This document shows, piece by piece, positions 1 to 46,505 of a DNA stretch of 46,505 bases. Each line of letters starts with the position of its first letter. Position 1 is the stretch's first letter. Position numbers and translations under genes: made by a program. The stretch lies in the IMG/VR virus record IMGVR_UViG_2563366802_000006; one strand, 5' to 3'. The notes beneath the pieces are model-generated. The model did not search any database, was not told the DNA's origin, and worked only from the letters and a program-made list of their open reading frames with translations. The stretch comes from a virus. Lineage: Duplodnaviria; Heunggongvirae; Uroviricota; Caudoviricetes.

Positions 1-1019
1 TTACGCCTTCTTTATATCCTCCATAATTCCAGAGTGGGACATATTTGGGACATTATCACCAAAAATGTCGTCTATTTTCCTCGCATGCTCTGTCAAATGA
101 TTAGGCGCAAGGTGAGCATACCTACGAACCATTTCTATGGACTCCCATCCGCCCATTTCCTGAAGCACTGATAATGGGACGCCTGACTGAATCAGCCAGC
201 TTGCCCAGGTGTGTCTGAGGTCATGGAAACGGAAATCTTCAATTCCTGCACGACGACAAGCTGATAGCCATGATGTCTTGCTGTCGATGCGCATCTTCCT
301 GACCGCAGGCGTTGATGTTCCATCTGCTCGCTTAGCCGCCTTGGTATGTACAAACACCCATTTGTGATGCTTGCCTATTTGATCACGCAACACTTTACAG
401 GCGGTATCGTTCAGCGCCACACCAATGGCGCGGTTTGATTTGCTCTCTTCTGGATTCACCCAGGCAACTCGTCGCTGCATGTCGATTTGTTGCCATTCCA
501 GATTTATGATGTTCGACTTTCTCAGACCAGTTGCCAGCGCAAACTTGACGACAGATTTCAGTGGTTCGGGGCACTCATCAATAAGGCGTTTTGCTTCCTC
601 CTTTTCCAGCCATCTGACTCGCTTGTTTCTGACCGCTGGTATCTTGATGACAGGCGCTTTTTCCAGCCACTTCCAGTCGCGTTCTGCAGCACGGAGAATG
701 GCCTTTATCATGGCAAGATGCTTTGCCTTTGTCTGAGTTGATACTGGCTTTGGTTCATAAACAGGCGGTTCTTTACCTTTCCTGATGGCGGCCTGAACTT
801 TCTGTTTCCATATTTCTTTCGTCTTTCTGTTATGCATTCTGCTTACAGCAGAGTAAATCTTTGCCTCCGAGATATCTTTAAGCCTTATACCCTCAAAATG
901 TTCAAGCCAGAACTCAATCCGGCTTTTATCTGAATCGAGAGATTTTTTATCAGCTTTTTCCTCAAGCCATCTTAGGCAGGCCTCTTCAAAAGTGACATCA
1001 GGTAAATCCCCTAGCTTTT

Positions 1020-3600
<2,581 letters not shown>

Positions 3601-3647
3601 TTTTACACCTCAGTTGGACGATGTTGAAATTTGCTGCTTTGAGGCCA

Positions 3648-3866
3648 TCACAGTCCCCATTGTTTGTTCTTAAGTTCGATCTCCTCCTGGCAACTTGCAC
3701 AAGTCCGACAACCCTGAACGACCAGGCGTCTTCGTTCATCTATTGGATCGCCACACTCACAACAATGAGTGGCAGATACAGTCTGGTAGTTCAGACGACG
3801 CATTTTTATTGCTGTGTTGCGCTGTAATTCTTCAATTTCTGATGCTGAATCAATGATGTCTGCCAT
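3648..3866 (-). CDS. TraR/DksA-family C4 zinc-finger protein
   Basis: 72-aa ORF with CxxC...17 aa...CxxC (CCECGDPIDERRRLVVQGCRTCASC), the pattern of phage TraR-like proteins. Confidence 0.7.
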   Translation of the reverse strand: MADIIDSASEIEELQRNTAIKMRRLNYQTVSATHCCECGDPIDERRRLVVQGCRTCASCQEEIELKNKQWGL

Positions 3867-3964
3867 CTTCCATTAATCCCTGAATTGTTGGTTAATACGC
3901 TTGAGGGTGAATGCGAATAATAAAAAAGGAGCCTGTAGCTCCCTGATGATTTTGCTTTTCATGT

Positions 3965-4180
3965 TCATCGTTCCTTAAAGACGCCGTTTAACATGCCGAT
4001 TGCCAGGCTTAAATGAGTCGGTGTGAATCCCATCAGCGTTACCGTTTCGCGGTGCTTCTTCAGTACGCTACGGCAAATGTCATCGACGTTTTTATCCGGA
4101 AACTGCTGTCTGGCTTTTTTGATTTCAGAATTAGCCTGACGGGCAATGCTGCGAAGGGCGTTTTCCTGCTGAGGTGTCAT
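3965..4180 (-). CDS. Small early-region protein (lambda orf61-like)
   Basis: Likely start at MTPQQENALRSIARQ... (ATG at 4180); position and size match the lambda exo-proximal small orfs. Confidence 0.55.
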   Translation of the reverse strand: MTPQQENALRSIARQANSEIKKARQQFPDKNVDDICRSVLKKHRETVTLMGFTPTHLSLAIGMLNGVFKER

Positions 4181-4256
4181 TGAACAAGTCCCATGTCGGC
4201 AAGCATAAGCACACAGAATATGAAGCCCGCTGCCAGAAAAATGCATTCCGTGGTTG

Positions 4257-4448
4257 TCATACCTGGTCTCTCTCATCTGCTTCTGCTTTCGCCACCATCA
4301 TTTCCAGCTTTTGTGAAAGGGATGCGGCTAACGTATGAAATTCTTCGTCTGTTTCTACTGGTATTGGCACAAACCTGACTCCAATTTGAGCGAGGCTATG
4401 TGCCATCTCGATACTCGTTCTTAACTCAACGGGAGATGCTTTGTGCAT
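4257..4448 (-). CDS. Small early-region protein (lambda orf63-like)
   Basis: 63-aa ORF immediately beyond orf60a; synteny with lambda. Confidence 0.55.
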   Translation of the reverse strand: MHKASPVELRTSIEMAHSLAQIGVRFVPIPVETDEEFHTLAASLSQKLEMMVAKAEADERDQV

Positions 4449-4609
4449 ACAGCTCCCCGTTTATTATTTATCTCCTCAGCCAGCCGCTGTGCTTTCAGTG
4501 GATTTCTGATAACAGAAAGGCCGGGAAATACCCAGCCTCGCTTTGTAATGGAGTAGACGAAAGTGATCGCGCCTACCCGGATATTATCGTGAGGATGCGT
4601 CATCGCCAT
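4421..4609 (-). CDS. Lambda orf60a-like protein
   Basis: 62-aa [36 protein letters not shown]... overlapping the exo start, as lambda orf60a does. Confidence 0.7.
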
Positions 4610-38625: not shown

Positions 38626-41600
38626 ATGGGTAAAGGCAGCAGTAAGGGGCATACCCCGCGCGAAGCGAAGGACAACCTGAAGTCCACGCAGCTGCTGAGT
38701 GTGATCGATGCCATCAGCGAAGGGCCGATTGAAGGTCCGGTGGATGGATTAAAAAGCGTGCTGCTGAACAGTACACCGGTGCTGGACAGTGAGGGGAATA
38801 CCAACATCTCCGGTGTCACGGTGGTGTTCCGGGCAGGTGAGCAAGAACAGACACCGCCAGAGGGATTTGAATCATCAGGTTCTGAGACGGTACTGGGTAC
38901 GGAAGTGAAATACGACACGCCGATCACCCGGACTATCACGTCTGCAAACATCGACCGTCTGCGCTTTACCTTCGGTGTGCAGGCACTGGTGGAAACCACC
39001 TCAAAGGGTGACAGGAATCCGTCGGAGGTCCGACTGCTGGTTCAGATACAGCGTAACGGTGGCTGGGTGACAGAAAAAGACATCACCATTAAGGGCAAAA
39101 CCACGTCGCAGTATCTGGCCTCGGTGGTGGTGGATAACCTGCCGCCGCGCCCGTTCAATATCCGGATGCGCAGGATGACGCCGGACAGCACCACAGACCA
39201 GCTGCAGAACAAAACGCTCTGGTCGTCATACACCGAAATTATCGATGTGAAACAGTGCTACCCGAACACGGCACTGGTCGGCGTGCAGGTGGACTCGGAG
39301 CAGTTCGGCAGCCAGCAGGTGAGCCGTAATTATCATCTGCGCGGGCGTATTCTGCAGGTGCCGTCGAATTATAACCCGCAGACGCGGCAATACAGCGGTA
39401 TCTGGGACGGAACGTTTAAACCGGCATACAGCAACAACATGGCCTGGTGTCTGTGGGATATGCTGACCCACCCGCGCTACGGCATGGGGAAACGTCTTGG
39501 TGCGGCGGATGTGGATAAATGGGCGCTGTATGTCATCGGCCAGTACTGCGACCAGTCAGTGCCGGACGGCTTTGGCGGCACGGAGCCGCGCATCACCTGT
39601 AATGCGTACCTGACCACACAGCGCAAGGCGTGGGATGTGCTCAGTGATTTCTGCTCGGCGATGCGCTGTATGCCGGTATGGAACGGGCAGACGCTGACGT
39701 TCGTGCAGGACCGACCGTCGGATAAGGTGTGGACCTATAACCGCAGTAATGTGGTGATGCCGGATGATGGCGCGCCGTTCCGCTACAGTTTCAGCGCCCT
39801 GAAGGACCGCCATAATGCCGTTGAGGTGAACTGGATTGACCCGAATAACGGCTGGGAAACGGCAACAGAGCTTGTGGAGGACACGCAGGCCATTGCCCGT
39901 TACGGTCGTAACGTCACGAAAATGGATGCCTTTGGCTGTACCAGCCGGGGGCAGGCGCACCGCGCCGGGCTGTGGCTGATTAAAACGGAACTGCTGGAAA
40001 CGCAGACCGTGGACTTCAGCGTGGGTGCAGAAGGGCTGCGCCATGTACCGGGTGATGTTATTGAAATCTGCGATGATGACTATGCGGGGATCAGCATTGG
40101 CGGGCGCGTGCTGGCGGTGAACAGCCAGACCCGGACGCTGACGCTCGACCGTGAAATCACGCTGCCATCCTCCGGCACCACGCTGATAAGCCTGGTTGAC
40201 GGGCAGGGTAATCCGGTGAGCGTGGAGGTCCAGTCCGTCACCGACGGCGTGAAGGTAAAAGTGAGCCGTGTTCCTGACGGCGTTGCCGAATACAGCGTGT
40301 GGGGGCTGAAGCTGCCGATGCTGCGTCAGCGCCTGTTCCGCTGTGTGAGTATCCGTGAGAACGACGACGGCACGTATGCCATCACCGCCGTGCAGCATGT
40401 GCCGGAAAAAGAGGCCATCGTGGATAACGGGGCGCACTTTGACGGCGACCAGAGTGGCACGGTGAATGGTGTCACGCCGCCAGCGGTGCAGCACCTGACT
40501 GCCGAAGTCACCGCAGACAGCGGGGAATATCAGGTACTGGCGCGCTGGGACACGCCGAAGGTGGTGAAGGGCGTGAGCTTTATGCTTCGCCTGACCGTGG
40601 CAGCGGATGACGGCAGTGAGCGGCTGGTCAGCACGGCCCGGACGACGGAAACCACATACCGCTTCACGCAACTGGCGTTGGGAAACTACAGGCTGACAGT
40701 CCGGGCGGCAAATGCCTGGGGGCAGCAGGGCGATCCGGCGTCGGTATCGTTCCGGATTGCCGCACCGGCAGCACCGTCGCGGATTGAGCTGACACCGGGG
40801 TATTTTCAGATAACCGCCACGCCGCATCTTGCCGTTTATGACCCGACGGTACAGTTTGAATTCTGGTTCTCGGAAAAGCGGATTGCGGATATCAGACAGG
40901 TTGAAACCACAGCGCGCTATCTTGGCACGGCGCTGTACTGGATAGCTGCCAGTATCAATATCAGGCCGGGCCATGATTATTATTTTTACATCCGCAGTGT
41001 GAACACCGTTGGCAAATCGGCATTTGTGGAGGCTGTTGGCCAGCCGAGTGATGATGCATCCGGCTATCTGGATTTTTTCAAAGGAGAGATAGGGAAAACC
41101 CATCTGGCTCAGGAGTTGTGGACGCAGATTGATAACGGTCAGCTTGCGCCTGACCTGGCTGAAATCAGGATGTCCATTACGGATGTCAGCAATGAAATCA
41201 CGCAGACCGTCAATAAGAAACTGGAAGACCAGAGTGCAGCAATTCAGCAGATACAGAAGGTTCAGGTTGATACAAATAATAACCTGAACAGCATGTGGGC
41301 TGTGAAGCTGCAGCAGATGCAGGACGGACGCCTTTATATCGCGGGTATTGGTGCCGGTATTGAGAATACCCCTGACGGTATGCAGAGTCAGGTGCTGCTG
41401 GCGGCGGACAGGATTGCGATGATTAATCCTGCGAATGGCAACACAAAGCCGATGTTTGTTGGTCAGGGCGATCAGATATTCATGAACGAAGTGTTCCTGA
41501 AATACCTGACGGCTCCCACCATTACCAGCGGCGGTAATCCTCCGGCATTTTCCCTGACACCGGACGGGCGGCTGACGGCGAAAAATGCAGATATCAGCGG

Positions 41601-42105
41601 TAACGTGAATGCGAACTCCGGGACGCTCAACAATGTCACGATTAATCAGAACTGCCGGATTCTGGGAAAACTGTCAGCCAACCAGATTGAAGGCGATATT
41701 GTTAAAACGGTGGGCAAAGCTTTCCCCCGGGACTCCCGTGCACCGGAGCGGTGGCCATCAGGAACCATTACCGTCAGGGTTTATGACGATCAGCCGTTTG
41801 ACCGGCAAATTGTTATCCCGGCGGTGGCATTCAGTGGCGCTAAACATGAGCAAGATCATACTGATATCTACTCCTCATGCCGTCTGATAGTACGAAAAAA
41901 CGGTGCTGAAATTTATAACCGAACGGCTCTGGATAATACGCTGATATATACGGGTGTTATTGATATGCCTGCAGGCAGTGGTGTCATGACACTGGAATTT
42001 TCTGTATCGGCATGGCTGGTAAATGGCTGGTATCCCACAGCAAGTATCAGCGATTTGCTGGTTGTGGTGATGAAGAAAGCCACCGCAGGCATCAGTATCA
42101 GCTGA
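38626..42105 (+). CDS. J: Central tail fibre / host-specificity protein J
   Basis: 1159-aa ORF; N-terminal roughly 900 aa match lambda gpJ closely. Confidence 0.96.
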
Positions 42106-42124
42106 ATTTTATAACCCCAATACG

Positions 42125-42150
42125 GGCGTCAGAAATGACGCCTTTTTTAT
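42125..42150 (+). terminator. Rho-independent terminator after J
   Basis: Hairpin GGCGTCAGAAATGACGCC followed by TTTTTTATT. Confidence 0.7.
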
Positions 42151-42172: not shown

Positions 42173-42772
42173 ATGCGTAAATTATGTGCTGTTATTCTGT
42201 CCGCAGTAGTCTGGCTGGTTGCCGCTGGTACGCCAGCGAGCGCAGCAGAGCATCAGTCCACACTAAGCGCCGGGTATCTTCAGACCCATACTGATATGCC
42301 AGGCAGTGATGACCTGAAGGGCATTAACGTGAAATACCGTTATGAATTTACGGACACGCTGGGGCTGGTGACGTCATTCAGTTATGCCAATGCCAAAGAT
42401 GAGCAAAAAACGCATTACAGCGATACCCGCTGGCATGAAGATTCAGTGCGTAACCGCTGGTTCAGCATGATGGCGGGGCCATCTGTACGCGTGAATGAAT
42501 GGTTCAGTGCTTATGCGATGGCAGGTGTGGCTTACAGCCGTGTTTCGACGTTCTCCGGGGATTATCTCCGCGTAACTGACAACAAGGGGAAAACGCACGA
42601 TGTGCTGACCGGAAGTGATGACGATCGCCACAGCAACACGTCTCTGGCGTGGGGAGCTAGCGTGCAGTTTAACCCGACCGAATCCGTGGCCATTGATATT
42701 GCTTATGAAGGCTCCGGCAGTGGCGACTGGCGCACTGACGGTTTCATCGTGGGTGTCGGTTATAAATTCTGA
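42173..42772 (+). CDS. lom: Lom outer-membrane protein (Ail/Lom/PagC family)
   Basis: 199-aa ORF with signal peptide and beta-barrel signature ending ...GFIVGVGYKF; matches lambda Lom. Confidence 0.93.
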   Translation: MRKLCAVILSAVVWLVAAGTPASAAEHQSTLSAGYLQTHTDMPGSDDLKGINVKYRYEFTDTLGLVTSFSYANAKDEQKTHYSDTRWHEDSVRNRWFSMMAGPSVRVNEWFSAYAMAGVAYSRVSTFSGDYLRVTDNKGKTHDVLTGSDDDRHSNTSLAWGASVQFNPTESVAIDIAYEGSGSGDWRTDGFIVGVGYKF

Positions 42773-42798: not shown

Positions 42799-42826
42799 AG
42801 CCCGCCGGTTCAGGCGGGCTTTTTTG
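42799..42826 (+). terminator. Rho-independent terminator after lom
   Basis: Hairpin AGCCCGCCGGTTCAGGCGGGCT followed by TTTTTT. Confidence 0.7.
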
Positions 42827-42830
42827 TGGA

Positions 42831-45209
42831 GTGGATATGGCAGCAGTAAAAATCTCAGGTGTGCTGAAAGATGGTGCGGGAAAACCAATACAGAACTGCA
42901 CTATTCAACTGAAGGCAAAGCGTAACAGCACCACGGTACTGGTGAACACGGTGGCCTCTGAAAATCCGGATGAAGCCGGGCGTTACAGCATGGATGTTGA
43001 GTATGGCCAGTACAGCGTCATCCTGCTGGTTGAAGGTTTTCCGCCTTCACATGCCGGGACCATTACCGTCTATGAAGGTTCCAGACCAGGTACGCTGAAT
43101 GATTTTCTTGGTGCCATGACGGAGGATGATGCCCGTCCGGAGGCACTGCGCCGTTTTGAACTGATGGTGGAAGAAGCAGCACGCAACGCTGAAGCCGCCT
43201 CTCAGAGCGCAGCGGCGGCAAAGAAATCCGAAACTGCAGCGGCATCATCGAAGAACGCGGCGAAAACCTCAGAAACGAATGCAGCTAATAGTGCACAGGC
43301 GGCAGCGACCTCACAGACTGCATCAGCAAACTCCGCGACAGCAGCCAAAAAATCAGAAACCAACGCGAAAAACAGCGAGACAGCCGCAAAGACGAGCGAA
43401 ACCAACGCAAAGTCCAGCCAGACGGCAGCGAAAACCAGCGAAACGAATGCCAAAGCCAGTGAAACTGCGGCAAAAAACAGCCAGGTTGCAGCAGCCCAAA
43501 GCGAGAGCGCGGCAGCCGGTTCTGCGACTTCAGCAGCTGGATCAGCAACTGCTGCGGCTAACAGCCAGAAAGCTGCGAAGACGAGTGAAACTAACGCAAA
43601 GTCCAGCCAGACGGCAGCGAAGACCAGCGAAACGAATGCCAAAGCCAGCGAAACTGCGGCGAAAAACAGCCAGGATGCAGCAGCCCAAAGCGAGAGTGCC
43701 GCAGCTGGTTCTGCAAGTGCGGCGGCTTCTTCTGCCACTGCATCAGCCAACAGTCAAAAAGCAGCAAAAACCAGTGAAACCAACACAAAGGCGAGCGAGA
43801 CTGCGGCGACTAACTCGGCGAAAGCATCCGCTGCAAGCCAGATGGCTGCAAAAGCAAGTGAAGACGCAGCCAGAGAGTATGCAAGCCAGGCAGCAGAGCC
43901 GTATAAATATGTCTTACAGCCACTGCCTGATGTGTGGATACCGTTTAATGACTCGATGGATATGATTACAGGATTTGGCCCGGGATATAAAAAAATAACA
44001 GTGCGCGATGATGTGGTCACTATACCATCCGACAAAATTGTCCCGTTTTCCCGCGCGAGTTCCGCGACCTATATCAATAAGTCCGGCGCTCTTACCATTG
44101 CAGAAATTAATGAGCCACGTTTTGAAAAAGAAGGGCTGTTAATTGAAGGGCAGAGAACAAATTACTTCACAAACTCAAACGCTCCGGAATTGTGGAATAA
44201 AAATCCAGGCCTGAAGATAAGCGAGACAAAAACCGATTCCAGGGGTTTTAAATATGCAACGTTTACCCCAGAAAAATATTTAGATAGTTCTGGCTCATAT
44301 GGAATTATATCAGGGGCAGCAGCAAATAAGATAGCGGTAGTCAAAAATGATGCAGTTACAATATCCTTTAGAGCAAAAGGGGATAATGTAAGATTTGCGG
44401 CTAGATTTGATAAAGGGGATTCGCCAGTTGCTGTAGCTGCCATTTTTATTGATAGCGCCACACTAGATACATTCACGTCTGGAGCAGATGCGTCTAATAT
44501 TGCTGTGAAAAATGTTGTTCGTGACGGTGAGTGGGTTGCTGTAGAGGCTGTTTATAAAGTAACAGACGACTCTACATATATTAACGGCGCCATTCTGATG
44601 TCAAACAAACTGGGTGCTAATTTTGATAAGACTAGTTTTATGGATGTAACCACCCCTCAAATAGAGCTAGGTTCTTGCTTATCATCATTTATTGTCACAC
44701 CAGGTGTTCCTGCGACAAGGGCGAGTGATATGGTTATTTTTTCAACCAGAAATAACATAAGTTCTGTCCCTTTAAGCTGTCTTGTTGAAATACATAAAAA
44801 TTGGGACTCTACGCCAAATCAGGCCCCACGAATTTTAACCACTATTGGCGTGGCGACTAATGATGAACAACTGGTATTGGCTTTCAGGACGCCTACAAGT
44901 CCGGATGTAGAACCTTTACCTTATGTTCAGTTTGGAGTGAGATCTGCATATCTTAGTCCATCTGTGAAGGCCGGGCGCAAAATGATTGCTGGTTTTGTCT
45001 GTAATAGCTCGACTGAATTTCGTTGCTGTTGTAATGGTTACCTGTCACCTGTTCAGACTTCGTCATGGAAGAATACCGGAGCTGCACATGAAATACGTAT
45101 TGGGGGAACTTCTGCTGGAGGAGAACGTCACTTGTTTGGTCACGTTCGTAACCTGAGAATATGGCATAAAGAATTAACTGATGCGCAAATGGGGGAGAGT
45201 ATTAAATGA
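42831..45209 (+). CDS. stf: Side tail fibre: lambda Stf-like N-terminus, Ala/Ser/Thr-rich repeat shaft, divergent low-GC C-terminal module
   Basis: N-terminus (AVKISGVLKDGAGKPIQNCTIQLKAKRNSTTVLVNTV...) matches lambda Stf; the C-terminal roughly 430 aa are AT-rich, unlike lambda Stf, and end in a ConA/LamG-like pattern. Confidence 0.85.
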   Translation: MDMAAVKISGVLKDGAGKPIQNCTIQLKAKRNSTTVLVNTVASENPDEAGRYSMDVEYGQYSVILLVEGFPPSHAGTITVYEGSRPGTLNDFLGAMTEDDARPEALRRFELMVEEAARNAEAASQSAAAAKKSETAAASSKNAAKTSETNAANSAQAAATSQTASANSATAAKKSETNAKNSETAAKTSETNAKSSQTAAKTSETNAKASETAAKNSQVAAAQSESAAAGSATSAAGSATAAANSQKAAKTSETNAKSSQTAAKTSETNAKASETAAKNSQDAAAQSESAAAGSASAAASSATASANSQKAAKTSETNTKASETAATNSAKASAASQMAAKASEDAAREYASQAAEPYKYVLQPLPDVWIPFNDSMDMITGFGPGYKKITVRDDVVTIPSDKIVPFSRASSATYINKSGALTIAEINEPRFEKEGLLIEGQRTNYFTNSNAPELWNKNPGLKISETKTDSRGFKYATFTPEKYLDSSGSYGIISGAAANKIAVVKNDAVTISFRAKGDNVRFAARFDKGDSPVAVAAIFIDSATLDTFTSGADASNIAVKNVVRDGEWVAVEAVYKVTDDSTYINGAILMSNKLGANFDKTSFMDVTTPQIELGSCLSSFIVTPGVPATRASDMVIFSTRNNISSVPLSCLVEIHKNWDSTPNQAPRILTTIGVATNDEQLVLAFRTPTSPDVEPLPYVQFGVRSAYLSPSVKAGRKMIAGFVCNSSTEFRCCCNGYLSPVQTSSWKNTGAAHEIRIGGTSAGGERHLFGHVRNLRIWHKELTDAQMGESIK
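43380..43755. repeat. Tandem direct repeat inside stf, unit 189 bp (63 codons), two near-identical copies
   Basis: GACGAGCGAAACCAACGCAAAGTCCAGCCAGACGGCAGCGAAAACCAGCGAAACGAATGCCAAAGCCAG... at 43391 recurs at 43580 with a few substitutions; encoded AAKTSETNAKSSQTAAKTSETNAKASETAAKNSQ repeats. Confidence 0.85.
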
Positions 45210-45487
45210 AAGATTTAACACTCAAATTTGCAGACAGGGCCGACTTTTCGGCCTTTATGGAGAGCATTGGCTATTATGATGACGAGTTGATGCAGGATGA
45301 TATTCTTATTGACGTGATAGGTAACGTGTACAAAGAAACCGGAGAACTGACTGAAGATGGCGAACCGGTATGTGTTAAGGAAGACGGATATTTTGTAAAC
45401 GTGCGCATCATTAATGATGCAAAAAAATCGTCAATATTCGATGAATACGCGGTTGTTGTTGAACATCAACTTCGTGGCTGGATGTGA
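45206..45487 (+). CDS. Hypothetical small acidic protein (93 aa), coupled to the stf stop
   Basis: ATG overlaps the stf stop (ATGA); low GC; no similarity to lambda Tfa. Confidence 0.5.
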   Translation: MKDLTLKFADRADFSAFMESIGYYDDELMQDDILIDVIGNVYKETGELTEDGEPVCVKEDGYFVNVRIINDAKKSSIFDEYAVVVEHQLRGWM

Positions 45488-45496
45488 GGGAGACAA

Positions 45497-46201
45497 ATGG
45501 CTACATCGACAGTAATTCCGGGAGACATCACCACGCTGAAGGGAGATGTCAGTAAAGCGAAGGAAGATATTTCCTCAATTAACAGTAAAGTATCAACGCT
45601 TCAGACTGATATGACCAGTGCAAAGCAGGATATCAGCTCCAGATACACAAAAACTGAAGTTGATAATAAGCTGAAAAACAAAGTGGAAGTGAACGATCTG
45701 GAAAGTGGTCGTTATGGCGGAGATTTTTATCCACTGACAGGTCGTGAAGCGTTTTATTTATGGAATTTGGCCACGACTACAGCGGCGGCAAACCTTTATC
45801 TTAATCCTGACCCTGCAATTTCGTCTGTACTGCGGTCAACATCGTCTATCCGCTATAAGCATTCAGTAGAGACGATAGATTCAGAGCACGCCGATCTCAT
45901 TTTCAGGATGCGCCCTGTATGGTACAGGTCACAATGCGAAAATGACAGGCGTGACTGGGGATTCTACGGATTGATTGCCGAGGAAGTAGGAGAAATTGCC
46001 CCTCAGTTTGTACACTGGCGATCAGCTAACGAAGATGATGCACGGGAAGCTATTTCCAGCAATGGCCTTGTTGCCGAAGGTGTAATGTACGAACGTCTGG
46101 TTGTTCCACTGATTCACCATATCCAGAAACTGACCGAAAGAGTTGATGAACTTGAGTCAGAATTGAAGTTGTTATCAACTTCCCGAAGCGATATCGGATA
46201 A
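45497..46201 (+). CDS. Hypothetical protein with C-terminal Peptidase_S74-like intramolecular chaperone domain and N-terminal coiled coil
   Basis: C-terminal pattern SSIRYKHSVETI...WGFYGLIAEEVGEIAPQFV...YERLVVPLIHHIQKLTERVDELESEL fits the endosialidase/tail-fibre chaperone domain consensus; N-terminal heptad-like region. Confidence 0.55.
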   Translation: MATSTVIPGDITTLKGDVSKAKEDISSINSKVSTLQTDMTSAKQDISSRYTKTEVDNKLKNKVEVNDLESGRYGGDFYPLTGREAFYLWNLATTTAAANLYLNPDPAISSVLRSTSSIRYKHSVETIDSEHADLIFRMRPVWYRSQCENDRRDWGFYGLIAEEVGEIAPQFVHWRSANEDDAREAISSNGLVAEGVMYERLVVPLIHHIQKLTERVDELESELKLLSTSRSDIG

Positions 46202-46211
46202 AGGAGGAGTA

Positions 46212-46505
46212 ATGGATATAACACCTTTTCTTCATGCGCTTTGTGCTGTGGCTGCGCAGGTACTGATTGGTCTTTTTACCGGAAACTGGGTTTACGGGGC
46301 GATAGCCGGTTGTACGTTCTTCATTGCGCGTGAACACACCCAGGCAGAATATCGCTGGATTGAAATGTTCGGGCATGGCAAGCGAATGAATATGCCGTGG
46401 TGGGGCGGTTTTGATCCGCGCGCATGGGATGTGGCAAGCCTGATGGATTTTGCTGTGCCGGTGGTGGCGTGTCTGCTGGTCTGGCTGTTGGTTAATCGTG
46501 GGTGA
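46212..46505 (+). CDS. Hypothetical small membrane protein (97 aa, 2-3 predicted transmembrane segments)
   Basis: Hydrophobic stretches LHALCAVAAQVLIGLFTGNWVYGAIAGCTFFIA and LMDFAVPVVACLLVWLLV; ribosome-binding site AGGAGG upstream; stop at 46503-46505. Confidence 0.5.
   Translation: MDITPFLHALCAVAAQVLIGLFTGNWVYGAIAGCTFFIAREHTQAEYRWIEMFGHGKRMNMPWWGGFDPRAWDVASLMDFAVPVVACLLVWLLVNRG

What the first reader, a model, noticed from the sequence alone, without database searches (positions are those of the whole stretch)
45206..46505. Low-GC three-gene cassette downstream of the side tail fibre, including a free-standing S74 chaperone-domain protein and a small membrane protein
Where lambda has tfa, this prophage has three AT-rich ORFs with no resemblance to Tfa: a 93-aa acidic protein coupled to the stf stop, a 234-aa protein made of a short coiled coil plus a Peptidase_S74-like intramolecular chaperone domain, and a 97-aa multi-pass membrane protein. 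S74 domains normally sit at the C-terminus of the fibre they fold and are cleaved off, so a separate small ORF carrying one is unusual. It could be a trans-acting fibre chaperone, a remnant of a swapped fibre gene, or part of an uncharacterised host-range or exclusion module, with the membrane protein as a possible superinfection-exclusion factor. The cassette may continue beyond the window.
Basis: partly seen in the sequence, partly recalled or inferred. Interest (0 to 1): 0.68.

Follow-up and report, generated by a model that had tools for sequence, protein, structure and literature searches.

The report
Two-part tail fibre plus membrane gene
The three small genes after this prophage's side tail fibre are two units: the accessory genes of a common two-part tail fibre also used by virulent coliphages, and a separate, uncharacterised small membrane protein that follows receptor-binding genes in many prophages and lambda-like or P22-like phages.

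Summary
The three ORFs exist exactly as described (45206-45487, 45497-46201, 46212-46505). They are tightly packed behind stf and under purifying selection. They are not one low-GC cassette. The low-GC block is the Stf C-terminal domain plus ORF1 and ORF2 (GC 0.41-0.45); ORF3 has GC 0.53.

Stf C-terminus, ORF1 and ORF2 form a mobile two-part lateral-fibre module. The same layout occurs in T5-like IrisVonRoten (Gp22-Gp23-Gp24), T1-like phages and a Nonagvirus.

ORF2 is not a free-standing chaperone or a gene remnant. It is the shortest allele of the distal-fibre slot: a conserved 15-residue N-terminal motif, a five-heptad coiled coil, a ~50-residue tip, and its own S74 chaperone with invariant Ser116/Lys121.

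ORF1 (93 aa, acidic) always follows this fibre type. Its role as chaperone or connector is unknown.

ORF3 belongs to an unannotated family of ~97-aa, three-helix membrane proteins (453 clusters). It sits directly downstream of tail fibres or tailspikes in lambda-like, P22-like and P2-like phages and prophages. It is absent from the three virulent carriers of the fibre module that I inspected. Its function is unknown; a prophage-specific envelope or exclusion role is the best guess.

The fibre module is an ordinary member of a known kind. ORF3 is the only potentially novel part.

The parts
42831..45209 (+). stf, 792 aa: the proximal subunit of the side/lateral tail fibre. It has a lambda-type N-terminal tail-attachment domain, an Ala/Ser/Thr/Lys-rich repeat shaft, and a ~430-aa C-terminal domain (GTA_spike_fiber-like plus concanavalin/Laminin_G_3-like).
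   Evidence: Pfam phage_tail_N 2.4e-67 and Laminin_G_3 3.4e-7. NCBIfam GTA_spike_fiber at residues 437-631. Residues 5-97 match PDB 9e7m chain Ta, 'Tail fiber protein', at 1.2e-49. The C-terminal 430 aa are 40-42% identical to IrisVonRoten Gp22 and the KarlJaspers lateral fibre.
43896..45209 (+). The low-GC, mobile C-terminal domain of Stf (aa 356-792). It starts at the conserved PYKYVLQPLPDVWIPFNDS junction. Residues 437-732 are the hypervariable, presumably receptor-binding, segment.
   Evidence: GC falls from 0.55 to 0.42 here. Segment identities to relatives are 0.90-0.99 for aa 1-355 (phage 21 only 0.61 for aa 101-355) but 0.16-0.50 for aa 437-732.
45206..45487 (+). ORF1, 93 aa, acidic (pI 4.2): the constant small partner of this fibre type. 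It is a candidate fibre chaperone or proximal-distal connector; its function is unknown.
   Evidence: ATGA overlap with the stf stop. phrog_1361, function unknown, 2.1e-46. Homologues in 181 phage records; under nearly all listed hits a tail or tail-fibre gene is annotated alongside, and in each inspected locus ORF1 directly follows it. No Pfam, NCBIfam or PDB match. The AF2 model failed at pLDDT 46.
45497..46201 (+). ORF2, 234 aa: the minimal allele of the distal-fibre slot, with its own C-terminal S74 intramolecular chaperone.
   Evidence: Pfam S74. Alignments with distal fibres. PDB 8hqz_d ('L-shaped tail fiber assembly') chaperone region at 1.4e-6. Full-length ~231-aa homologues in T1-like phages.
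45497..45541 (+). ORF2 N-terminal motif, aa 1-15 (M-x-T-x-T-x-I-P-x-D-I-x-x-L-K). It is shared by otherwise different distal fibres and is the presumed docking peptide.
   Evidence: M1, T3, T5, I7, P8, D10, I11, L14 and K15 are invariant across window ORF2, KarlJaspers, HannyBb, ESCO3 and IrisVonRoten Gp24.
45527..45634 (+). ORF2 coiled coil, aa 11-46: five uninterrupted heptads with a/d positions I11, L14, V18, A21, I25, I28, V32, L35, M39, A42, I46.
   Evidence: Heptad register analysis. Weak matches to the LPP leucine zipper and to the trimeric P22 tail needle gp26, 4lin.
45692..45841 (+). ORF2 tip segment, aa ~66-115. It is homologous to the segment that immediately precedes the same chaperone in longer (350-405 aa) fibres.
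   Evidence: Alignment A8: the TTTxxANLYxxP...VLRSTS block is conserved in P0033-P0044 and other longer fibres.
45842..46198 (+). ORF2 S74 intramolecular chaperone domain, aa 116-234. The catalytic Ser116 (45842-45844) and Lys121 (45857-45859) sit in the motif S-S-I-R-Y-K. The predicted mature protein is aa 1-115.
   Evidence: S116 and K121 are invariant in 28 homologues down to 26% identity. The motif aligns with TSGIEYK of 8hqz_d. Cleavage itself is inferred from what is known of S74 domains.
45486..45492 (+). Shine-Dalgarno GAGGGAG for ORF2. It overlaps the ORF1 stop and lies 4 nt before the ATG.
   Evidence: Read directly from the sequence.
46202..46207 (+). Shine-Dalgarno AGGAGG for ORF3, 4 nt before the ATG. 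DNA homology with the ORF3 copies of phage 21 and lambda-like phages starts at 46200.
   Evidence: Sequence. The megablast pieces begin at query position 1101, which is window 46200.
46212..46505 (+). ORF3, 97 aa: a three-helix membrane protein of an unannotated family that trails receptor-binding genes in prophages and in lambda-like and P22-like phages. It is not part of the fibre module.
   Evidence: AF2 pLDDT 94.9 with helices at 4-23, 26-53 and 74-96. GC 0.531. phrog_1443, function unknown. 575 homologues with no name and no Pfam domain. 453 clusters at 50% identity; the 150 listed are all 58-146 aa. Contexts.
46326..46361 (+). ORF3 conserved polar motif A-R-E-H-T-Q-A-E-Y-R-W-I (aa 39-50) on the extension of helix 2. 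It is followed by N-M-P-W-W-G-G-F-D-P-R-x-W (aa 60-72).
   Evidence: R40, E41, Q44, A45, E46, Y47, R48, W49, R58, P62, G65, G66 and W72 are invariant in 73 sequences down to 56% identity.

Best explanation
The region holds two independent units.

Unit 1 is the Stf C-terminal domain plus ORF1 and ORF2, a two-part lateral tail fibre. Stf is the proximal subunit. Its lambda-type N-terminus fixes it to the tail tip, and its variable lectin-like C-terminal domain probably binds a surface glycan. ORF2 is the distal subunit in its shortest form. Three chains would be brought into register and folded by ORF2's own C-terminal S74 chaperone. The chaperone then cuts itself off at Ser116, leaving a ~115-residue trimer made of the docking peptide, a five-heptad coiled coil and a small tip. 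That trimer would dock on the proximal fibre through the conserved N-terminal peptide. ORF1 is translationally coupled to stf and always accompanies this Stf C-terminus, with or without a distal fibre. It most likely acts on the Stf C-terminal end as an assembly chaperone or as the connector or cap of the joint.

Unit 2 is ORF3, a three-helix inner-membrane protein of separate origin. It is placed as the last gene after the receptor-binding genes and is co-transcribed with them. Virulent phages use the same fibre module without it, and it follows unrelated tailspikes and fibres in prophages and in lambda-like and P22-like phages. It therefore most likely serves a function specific to temperate phages at the cell envelope, such as superinfection exclusion or surface or envelope modification, rather than fibre assembly.

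Shown: gene structure, homologies, module layout, conserved motifs and catalytic dyad, distribution, selection, and the ORF3 fold. Inferred: trimerisation, autocleavage, docking, the roles of ORF1 and ORF3, and ORF3 topology.
For: Module layout. Proximal fibre, then a 92-93-aa gene overlapping its stop, then a ~9-nt gap, then a distal fibre with an S74 domain. This is seen in the window, PhiR49_1, HannyBb and ESCO3, KarlJaspers and IrisVonRoten Gp22/23/24. The BASEL-2 paper (PMC11990801) treats Gp22 as the proximal fibre with a protruding galectin-like domain and Gp24 as the attached distal fibre.

Homology. The Stf C-terminal 430 aa are 40-42% identical to Gp22 and the KarlJaspers fibre. ORF2's N-terminal motif is invariant among distal fibres. 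The S116/K121 dyad is invariant. The chaperone region matches solved chain 8hqz_d. The heptad register is perfect over aa 11-46.

Not a remnant. dN/dS is 0.14-0.21. Homologues of ~231 aa occur in more than 40 T1-like genomes.

ORF1. It occurs in 181 phage records, with a tail or tail-fibre gene annotated under nearly all listed hits, and directly follows that gene in each inspected locus. It is kept in phage 21 without ORF2. It diverges together with the Stf C-terminus while ORF2 stays at 94% in PhiR55_1.

ORF3. Its GC is 0.53 against 0.41-0.45 for the module. It is 95-98% identical where its neighbours differ. It overlaps the tailspike stop in P22-like JEP4. It follows gpJ, P2-type fibres, and pectate-lyase and GDSL tailspikes in Comamonas, Leclercia, Aeromonas, Salmonella, Citrobacter and E. 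coli prophages. It is absent from the virulent loci inspected, and the full-length matches among listed phage records are all lambda-like or P22-like Escherichia phages apart from one Aeromonas phage. There is no promoter- or terminator-like site on the + strand between stf and the window end.
Against: No experiment or complex model shows ORF2 bound to Stf. The BASEL authors modelled the proximal and distal fibres separately and never modelled the ORF1 homologue.

The mature ORF2 would be very small for a receptor-binding fibre. It may be only a cap.

The ORF1 structure prediction failed. Its correlation with the last 60 Stf residues (rho 0.81, n = 8) could be simple physical linkage.

For ORF3, tight coupling to late genes and the lack of any conserved upstream promoter argue against expression in lysogens. 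One homologue is chromosomal with no phage context. There was no match in PADLOC, Pfam or the fold libraries. The lifestyles of the two Aeromonas phages that carry it are unknown.
Confidence: 0.6

Rival explanations
1. ORF2 is a trans-acting chaperone. Its S74 domain would help the Stf C-terminal domain, which has no chaperone of its own, to trimerise, and ORF2 would not end up in the virion. This is the first reader's first option and the BASEL annotation 'putative lateral tail fiber chaperone'.
For: The homologues in KarlJaspers and PeterMerian are annotated that way. The part of ORF2 outside the S74 domain is short, at 115 aa. Stf lacks an S74 domain and a Tfa.
Against: Phage 21 and many lambda-like phages have the same Stf C-terminus and ORF1 but no ORF2. 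The slot is filled by 343-574-aa fibres with the same N-terminal motif. PhiR55_1 combines a 94%-identical ORF2 with a strongly diverged Stf C-terminus. From established knowledge, S74 chaperones act in cis on the polypeptide that carries them. ORF2 has its own coiled coil and tip.
Confidence: 0.12
2. ORF2 is the decayed 3' remnant of a longer fibre gene, left behind by a module swap, and has no function.
For: ORF2 matches positions 1147-1384 of a 1385-column PHROG profile. Longer fibres end in the same tip plus chaperone. A tfa fragment lies just beyond the window in a near-identical genome, showing that past recombination left debris here.
Against: ORF2 has its own SD and ATG and a conserved N-terminal motif. 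Its dN/dS is 0.14-0.21. The same full-length architecture is kept at 55-59% identity in compact virulent genomes. At least 80% of a query spanning all three ORFs is covered in 720 genomes.
Confidence: 0.03
3. ORF3 is a late morphogenetic or infection-cycle factor for receptor-binding proteins, not a prophage-benefit gene. For example, it could be a membrane-anchored helper for tailspike or fibre maturation, or a factor that alters the envelope of the dying cell so that progeny are not trapped.
For: It is always on the same strand and often overlaps or abuts the stop of the fibre or tailspike gene. It sits inside tail gene clusters in P2-like and Salmonella prophages, not only at operon ends. 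There is no upstream promoter-like site, and no conserved sequence beyond 12 nt upstream.
Against: The same Stf/ORF1/ORF2 module works in virulent T1-like, T5-like and Nonagvirus phages without it. It is near-identical behind unrelated receptor-binding proteins. A chromosomal copy exists outside any prophage.
Confidence: 0.2
4. All three ORFs form one functional host-range or exclusion cassette that works together, as the finding's title implies.
For: The genes are tightly packed with no internal terminators. The trio is conserved in 720 genomes.
Against: The three assort independently. ORF1 with ORF3 but no ORF2 occurs in phage 21. ORF1 with ORF2 but no ORF3 occurs in T1-like, T5-like and Nonagvirus phages. 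ORF3 alone follows tailspikes. ORF3 differs in composition.
Confidence: 0.05

Closest known systems
Two-subunit lateral tail fibre of the T5-like phage IrisVonRoten (Bas32): Gp22 proximal fibre, Gp23, Gp24 distal 'T-shaped' fibre with an intramolecular chaperone (Humolli et al. 2025, PMC11990801)
   Same: Same gene order and spacing. The proximal fibres are 792 and 796 aa, with 40% identity over the C-terminal domain. The 92-93-aa middle gene is homologous and overlaps the fibre stop. The distal protein has the same N-terminal motif and a C-terminal S74 chaperone.
   Different: Gp24 is 574 aa with two receptor-binding domains, while ORF2 is 234 aa with none recognisable. The host here is a temperate lambdoid prophage. 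The N-terminal tail anchor is lambda Stf-type, not T5 Ltf-type. ORF3 is absent from IrisVonRoten.
Lateral fibre locus of T1-like Drexlerviridae, e.g. KarlJaspers bas06_0037/0036/0035 ('lateral tail fiber protein', hypothetical protein, 'putative lateral tail fiber chaperone')
   Same: The closest full-length relatives of ORF2 (55-59% identity, ~231 aa). ORF1 homologues are 48-53% identical, and the fibre C-terminal domain is 42% identical.
   Different: These are virulent phages with no ORF3 and a different N-terminal fibre anchor. The function was never tested and the annotation is a guess.
Branched L-shaped tail fibres LtfA/LtfB of T5-like phage DT57C (Golomidova 2016, PMC4728585; Ayala 2023, PMC10713586; PDB 8hqz)
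   Same: The principle of one fibre protein attached to the virion through another. ORF2's chaperone region matches chain 8hqz_d ('L-shaped tail fiber assembly', 1076 aa), which I take to be DT57C LtfA, at E 1.4e-6, including the catalytic motif.
   Different: Sequence similarity is restricted to the chaperone and a fibre repeat. The LtfB attachment site on LtfA is unresolved. I did not check whether DT57C has an ORF1-like gene.
Endosialidase-type C-terminal intramolecular chaperone domains (Pfam PF13884, Peptidase_S74)
   Same: The domain is at the C-terminus, the Ser/Lys dyad is present, and a fibrous trimeric segment lies upstream.
   Different: The passenger is unusually short, at 115 residues, mostly coiled coil.
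Lambda Tfa and Mu/P2-type tail fibre assembly proteins (compared with ORF1)
   Same: Position: a small gene immediately downstream of, and coupled to, the fibre gene.
   Different: There is no sequence similarity to any Tfa family. ORF1 is smaller and acidic. Membership was tested and not met.
Cor (phi80/N15/T1) and Llp (T5) receptor-blocking lipoproteins, and HK97 gp15- or T4 Imm-type inner-membrane exclusion proteins (compared with ORF3)
   Same: A small envelope protein encoded next to the receptor-binding genes of a phage. The inner-membrane helical architecture resembles Imm or gp15. These resemblances are from my own knowledge of those proteins.
   Different: ORF3 has no lipobox or signal peptide features of Cor or Llp. 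It matched nothing in Pfam, PHROGs categories or PADLOC. It is not tied to one receptor specificity. No exclusion phenotype is known.

Membership tests
Fibre proteins with a C-terminal Peptidase_S74 intramolecular chaperone (ORF2) | Significant match to the S74 domain model | tested here: met
   PF13884: 27.5 bits against a gathering cut-off of 22, E 3.9e-6, profile positions 1-57 of 58. Matches the chaperone region of 8hqz_d at E 1.4e-6.
Fibre proteins with a C-terminal Peptidase_S74 intramolecular chaperone (ORF2) | Catalytic Ser and Lys (S-x-x-x-x-K) at the start of the domain | tested here: met
   S116 and K121 (S-S-I-R-Y-K) are invariant in 28 homologues down to 26% identity.
Fibre proteins with a C-terminal Peptidase_S74 intramolecular chaperone (ORF2) | The domain is C-terminal to a fibrous, trimer-forming passenger in the same polypeptide | tested here: met
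   Uninterrupted heptads over aa 11-46 and a tip at 66-115 lie upstream of the domain. Trimer formation itself is inferred.
Fibre proteins with a C-terminal Peptidase_S74 intramolecular chaperone (ORF2) | Autoproteolytic release of the chaperone after folding | not testable with these tools
   Needs protein expression, or virion mass spectrometry.
Two-part (proximal plus distal) lateral tail fibre modules of the IrisVonRoten/T1-like type | A proximal fibre with the homologous C-terminal domain | tested here: met
   40% identity over 747 aligned positions to Gp22 (3e-135) and 42% over 559 to the KarlJaspers fibre.
Two-part (proximal plus distal) lateral tail fibre modules of the IrisVonRoten/T1-like type | A small ORF1-family gene overlapping the proximal fibre's stop | tested here: met
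   ATGA overlap in the window. Homologues occupy the same position in L001-L004, L006, L012, L013 and L014.
Two-part (proximal plus distal) lateral tail fibre modules of the IrisVonRoten/T1-like type | A distal fibre gene next in line that carries the shared N-terminal motif | tested here: met
   Nine positions in the first 15 residues are invariant across five different distal proteins.
Two-part (proximal plus distal) lateral tail fibre modules of the IrisVonRoten/T1-like type | Physical attachment of the distal protein to the proximal fibre in the virion | not testable with these tools
   Only monomer prediction is available here. The published models were made for each protein separately.
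Tfa / Caudo_TAP tail fibre assembly chaperones (ORF1) | Sequence membership in a Tfa family | tested here: not met
   No family in Pfam at E<=1, none in NCBIfam, and only unknown-function PHROGs. No PDB relative by profile.
Tfa / Caudo_TAP tail fibre assembly chaperones (ORF1) | Encoded immediately downstream of the fibre gene it serves | tested here: met
   This is position only and does not establish function.
Cor/Llp-type receptor-blocking lipoproteins (ORF3) | A lipoprotein signal peptide with a lipobox cysteine | tested here: not met
   The N-terminus MDITPFLHALCAV has no basic n-region, and H-A-L-C is a poor lipobox (read from the sequence). The model shows residues 4-23 as the first of three packed helices.
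Known anti-phage defence or exclusion proteins (ORF3, ORF1, ORF2) | Match to a PADLOC-DB model | tested here: not met
   Zero families at E<=1 for all three.
O-antigen conversion proteins (GtrA-type flippase, acetyltransferases) (ORF3) | Match to the corresponding Pfam families | tested here: not met
   The only Pfam hit is a sub-threshold PhoR transmembrane match, E 0.093.
Holins (ORF3) | Membership of a holin family, or location in the lysis cassette | tested here: not met
   No lysis-category PHROG or holin Pfam match. In one E. coli prophage ORF3 lies upstream of two recognised holins rather than replacing them.

The most novel reading that the evidence does not exclude
ORF3 may define a new class of small inner-membrane proteins that phages and prophages of at least three tail types (lambda-like, P22-like, P2-like), across Enterobacteriaceae, Aeromonas and Comamonas, place directly behind their glycan-targeting fibres and tailspikes. 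Its invariant cluster (H8, R40, E41, E46, Y47, R48, W49, plus the tryptophan-rich loop) would act on a conserved envelope process, for example surface-polysaccharide assembly or phage DNA entry. That would give lysogens or induced cells receptor-independent protection or surface conversion. A second, smaller possibility is that the ORF1 family is the missing connector of two-part lateral fibres.
Probability: 0.3. Interest if true: 0.7.

Novelty: new member of a known kind. Interest (0 to 1): 0.4.

Why it matters
For the fibre module the value is mainly corrective. A gene annotated as 'chaperone of endosialidase' or 'lateral tail fiber chaperone' in dozens of coliphages, and in about one in eight complete E. 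coli genomes, is better read as the shortest allele of a swappable distal-fibre slot. In lambdoid prophages the variable, probably specificity-determining, part is Stf residues 437-732. That helps host-range prediction and fibre engineering. It also points to a conserved docking peptide and a small partner protein (ORF1) as the unexplored joint of two-part fibres.

ORF3 is one of the most widespread unannotated prophage genes in E. coli. Matches that include it occur in 1,904 of 5,426 genomes, up to 8 places per genome. It has a confident fold, an invariant polar motif and a strict position after receptor-binding genes. It is present in the classical lab phage 21, so the question is directly testable.

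Tried and rejected
1. Structure prediction of ORF1 from 25 close homologues failed (pLDDT 46), so I ran no fold search on it. The homologue search returned only sequences at least 84% identical among the 120 listed.
2. The afdb50 fold library was not available.
4. An exhaustive profile search for ORF3 fusions to known domains found none; all 150 listed proteins are 58-146 aa.
5. PADLOC, Pfam and NCBIfam gave nothing for ORF1 and ORF3.
6. Literature searches for the RefSeq accessions and for the phage 21 fibre region returned nothing relevant. The Hf4s seroconversion preprint concerns a Gtr cluster, not ORF3.
7. The PHROG hit placing ORF2 at the end of a 1,385-column profile suggested a fusion or remnant. 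No hit longer than 409 aa was found, so I treat the profile length as an artefact of family clustering.
8. The weak PhoR match of ORF3 (E 0.093) I judged to be transmembrane-segment noise.
9. The Stf-C versus ORF1 correlation is only weak support, because adjacent sequences share recombination history.
10. One row (stfC against L001) used guessed coordinates and I did not use it.

Full report
**Observation**

The window ends with four same-strand genes:
- stf, 42831-45209, 792 aa;
- ORF1, 45206-45487, 93 aa;
- ORF2, 45497-46201, 234 aa;
- ORF3, 46212-46505, 97 aa. Its stop codon is the last base of the window.

The ORF1 start overlaps the stf stop as ATGA. ORF2 and ORF3 each have a Shine-Dalgarno sequence 4 nt upstream of the ATG. 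There is no promoter-like or terminator-like site on the + strand between the terminator after lom (42799-42820) and the window end. The four genes therefore look like one transcription unit.

ORF1 is acidic, with pI 4.19. ORF2 carries a Pfam Peptidase_S74 match above the gathering threshold at residues 116-172. ORF3 is hydrophobic at residues 1-39 and 71-97. None of the three matches a Tfa family.

Against close relatives, dN/dS is 0.14-0.21 for ORF2, 0.16-0.29 for ORF3 and 0.23-0.74 for ORF1. These are real, constrained genes.

The description 'low-GC three-gene cassette' is not right. GC is 0.55 for the stf N-terminal part, 0.419 for the stf C-terminal part, 0.408 for ORF1 and 0.448 for ORF2. 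It is 0.531 for ORF3, against a window mean of 0.513. The compositional block therefore starts inside stf near 43,900 and stops before ORF3.

**How common it is**

A 1,406-bp query covering the three ORFs is matched over at least 80% of its length in 720 of 5,426 complete E. coli genomes. Parts of it are matched in 1,904 genomes, with a median of 2 and up to 8 places per genome.

The complete cassette is present in the isolated phages PhiR49_1 and IdasGreatGrand, with a more diverged ORF1 in PhiR55_1.

In a 99.9%-identical chromosome (strain 118UI), ORF3 is followed only by a 111-bp tfa pseudogene fragment and then appY, ompT, envY, ybcH and nfrA. The cassette does not continue beyond the window.

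**The three genes assort independently**
- Phage 21 has stf, a 92-aa ORF1 homologue (53% identity) and ORF3 (95% identity), with no middle gene.
- HannyBb has ORF1 (90%), a different 343-aa 'tail fiber protein', and ORF3 (98%).
- The virulent Nonagvirus ESCO3 has a fibre, ORF1 (91%) and a 351-aa 'endosialidase chaperone', with no ORF3.
- T1-like KarlJaspers has a lateral fibre, an ORF1 homologue and a 225-aa ORF2 homologue annotated 'putative lateral tail fiber chaperone', with no ORF3.
- P22-like JEP4 has a tailspike whose stop is overlapped by an ORF3 homologue (78% identity), followed by the integrase gene. It has no ORF1 or ORF2.

**ORF2 is the distal subunit of a two-part fibre**

The T5-like phage IrisVonRoten has the same layout as the window:
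- Gp22, a 796-aa 'lateral tail fiber protein';
- bas32_0023, a 92-aa ORF1 homologue overlapping its stop;
- a 9-nt gap;
- Gp24, 574 aa.

The BASEL-2 paper (PMC11990801) describes Gp22 as the proximal fibre whose C-terminus carries a protruding galectin-like domain. It describes Gp24 as a distal fibre with two receptor-binding domains and a C-terminal intramolecular chaperone, attached to the proximal fibre.

The window's Stf aligns with Gp22 at 40% identity (3e-135) and with the KarlJaspers fibre at 42% (5e-127). Both alignments run through the whole C-terminal ~430 residues.

ORF2 shares the motif M-x-T-x-T-x-I-P-x-D-I-x-x-L-K with Gp24, with the 343- and 351-aa alleles, and with the T1-like homologue. 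Nine positions are invariant. After the motif the proteins diverge completely until the chaperone domain.

Within ORF2 the parts are:
- Residues 11-46 form five uninterrupted heptads: I11, L14, V18, A21, I25, I28, V32, L35, M39, A42, I46.
- Residues ~50-115 are homologous to the segment that precedes the same chaperone in longer fibres of 350-405 aa.
- Ser116 and Lys121 are invariant in 28 homologues down to 26% identity. They align with the corresponding motif of chain 8hqz_d, 'L-shaped tail fiber assembly' (1076 aa), which I take to be DT57C LtfA (E 1.4e-6).

ORF2 therefore has everything an S74-type fibre protein has, in miniature. From established knowledge of S74 domains, the chaperone acts in cis and cleaves itself off. 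That would leave a ~115-residue trimer.

Full-length ~231-aa homologues at 55-59% identity occur in more than 40 virulent T1-like genomes, always next to an ORF1 homologue. This excludes the 'remnant' reading.

The 'trans-chaperone' reading is made unlikely by three observations:
- Loci exist that have the same Stf C-terminus without ORF2.
- PhiR55_1 has ORF2 at 94% identity while its Stf C-terminus and ORF1 are strongly diverged; ORF1 is 31% identical.
- Large real fibres occupy the same slot.

**Where specificity probably lies**

Relatives share 84-97% identical ORF1 and ORF2 and 90-99% identical Stf residues 1-355. Against those same relatives, Stf residues 437-732 are only 16-50% identical. 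So in lambdoid prophages the exchangeable part is the lectin-like C-terminal domain of the proximal fibre. The short ORF2 allele is a conserved accessory.

**ORF1**

Homologues occur in 181 phage records: lambdoid, Drexlerviridae, Dhillonvirus, Nonagvirus, T5-like and rV5-like. Under nearly all listed hits a tail or tail-fibre gene is annotated alongside. In every locus I inspected, ORF1 directly follows the fibre gene.

It has no Pfam, NCBIfam or PDB relative, and the structure prediction failed at pLDDT 46. Its identity across eight loci tracks the last 60 residues of Stf (rho 0.81) but not the ORF2 slot (rho 0.02). Because the sequences are adjacent, that could be linkage.

The BASEL authors modelled Gp22 and Gp24 separately and never modelled Gp23. 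So the joint and the role of this family are open. I infer that ORF1 is a chaperone, connector or cap acting at the Stf C-terminus, from position and co-occurrence only.

**ORF3**

This is a different unit. The word-indexed search found 575 homologues, none named and none with a Pfam domain. The exhaustive profile search found 453 clusters at 50% identity; the 150 listed are all 58-146 aa with no fusions.

Seventy-three sequences down to 56% identity keep D2, H8, Q16, G29, R40, E41, Q44-W49, R58, P62, G65, G66 and W72 invariant. AlphaFold gives pLDDT 94.9 and pTM 0.79, with helices at 4-23, 26-53 and 74-96. The 40-73 segment carries all five basic residues outside helix 3. It is therefore probably cytoplasmic; this is an inference.

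Fold searches returned only generic helical matches. PADLOC returned nothing.

The sampled contexts are:
- after stf/ORF1(/ORF2) in lambdoids;
- overlapping a tailspike stop in P22-like JEP4;
- after gpJ plus a 72-aa ORF in Comamonas;
- abutting or overlapping P2-type fibres in Leclercia and A. salmonicida;
- between two tailspikes in Salmonella;
- after a pectate-lyase tailspike in Citrobacter;
- after a GDSL tailspike and before the holins in a divergent E. coli prophage;
- one gene away from a convergent tailspike in Aeromonas phage 62AhydR11PP;
- unclear in Aeromonas phage 4_4512;
- uninformative in one metagenome contig;
- no phage context in A. rivipollensis.

About 10 of 14 contexts are directly downstream of a receptor-binding gene. 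Among listed phage records, the full-length matches are lambda-like and P22-like Escherichia phages, apart from one Aeromonas phage. The virulent carriers of the same fibre module that I inspected lack it.

From this I infer that ORF3 is not needed for fibre assembly and serves something specific to temperate phages at the envelope. Against a classical lysogenic-conversion role, it has no promoter of its own that I can see. Sequence conservation also starts only 12 nt upstream of its ATG.

**Verdict**

The finding's observation is largely right in its details but wrong in treating the three ORFs as one low-GC unit. It is also wrong in calling ORF2 a free-standing chaperone.

The fibre part is an ordinary, very common member of a known kind of two-part lateral fibre. 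The only potentially new biology is the ORF3 family and, to a lesser degree, ORF1. No function could be established for either with these tools.

Noticed in passing
L007:8426-8536 (strain 118UI, immediately after the position where the window ends): A 111-bp tail-fibre-assembly (tfa) pseudogene fragment, lacking its N-terminus, lies 20 nt after the ORF3 stop, followed by appY, ompT, envY, ybcH and nfrA. It looks like the scar of a swap that replaced an older stf-tfa end. It also places this prophage next to the appY-ompT region, where I recall K-12 carries DLP12. PhiR49_1 also carries small Tfa fragments further downstream.
   Followed up: partly
window 43100-43850: The Stf shaft is built of Ala/Ser/Thr/Lys-rich repeats (KTSETNAK.SETAAKNSQ...). 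This gives an extreme AT skew (0.44-0.66) and several long spurious ORFs in other frames and on the minus strand, e.g. 43202-43750 (-), 182 aa, and 43279-43965 (+), 228 aa.
   Followed up: no
window 42124-42143 and 42799-42820: Terminator-like hairpins flank lom (42173-42772; Ail/Lom, 1.5e-126). One follows J and one follows lom, the layout of an independently transcribed insert inside the late operon.
   Followed up: no
L013 (PhiR55_1) 862-4481: This phage combines a 94%-identical ORF2 and ORF3 with an ORF1 only 31% identical and a strongly diverged Stf C-terminal domain. Recombination therefore occurs between ORF1 and ORF2 as well as inside stf.
   Followed up: partly
L008:6970-7521 and L019:2499-2996: A protein of the unknown-function family phrog_3108 lies two genes from the ORF3 homologue in both the Comamonas prophage and Aeromonas phage 62AhydR11PP. 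This may be a second conserved neighbour of the ORF3 family outside Escherichia.
   Followed up: no
L009:6001-6309 (Aeromonas rivipollensis chromosome): An ORF3-family gene (58% identity) stands alone among housekeeping genes (pirin, RIO1 kinase). Two lipid A acyltransferase paralogues sit on the opposite strand within 2.5 kb, and there are no phage genes in 12 kb.
   Followed up: no
L007:1184-4680 versus window 38626-42105: The tail-tip gene J is intact in the window (1,159 aa) but annotated as frameshifted in the otherwise near-identical prophage of strain 118UI.
   Followed up: no
(E. coli genome search): 58 of the 4,047 matching places are on plasmids rather than chromosomes. These may be phage-plasmids carrying ORF3 or the fibre module.
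   Followed up: no
L003:5399-8848 (phage 21): In phage 21 the gene after ORF3, on the opposite strand, begins a complete sitABCD iron/manganese transporter cargo. So ORF3 marks the end of the late operon at the boundary with accessory cargo.
   Followed up: no
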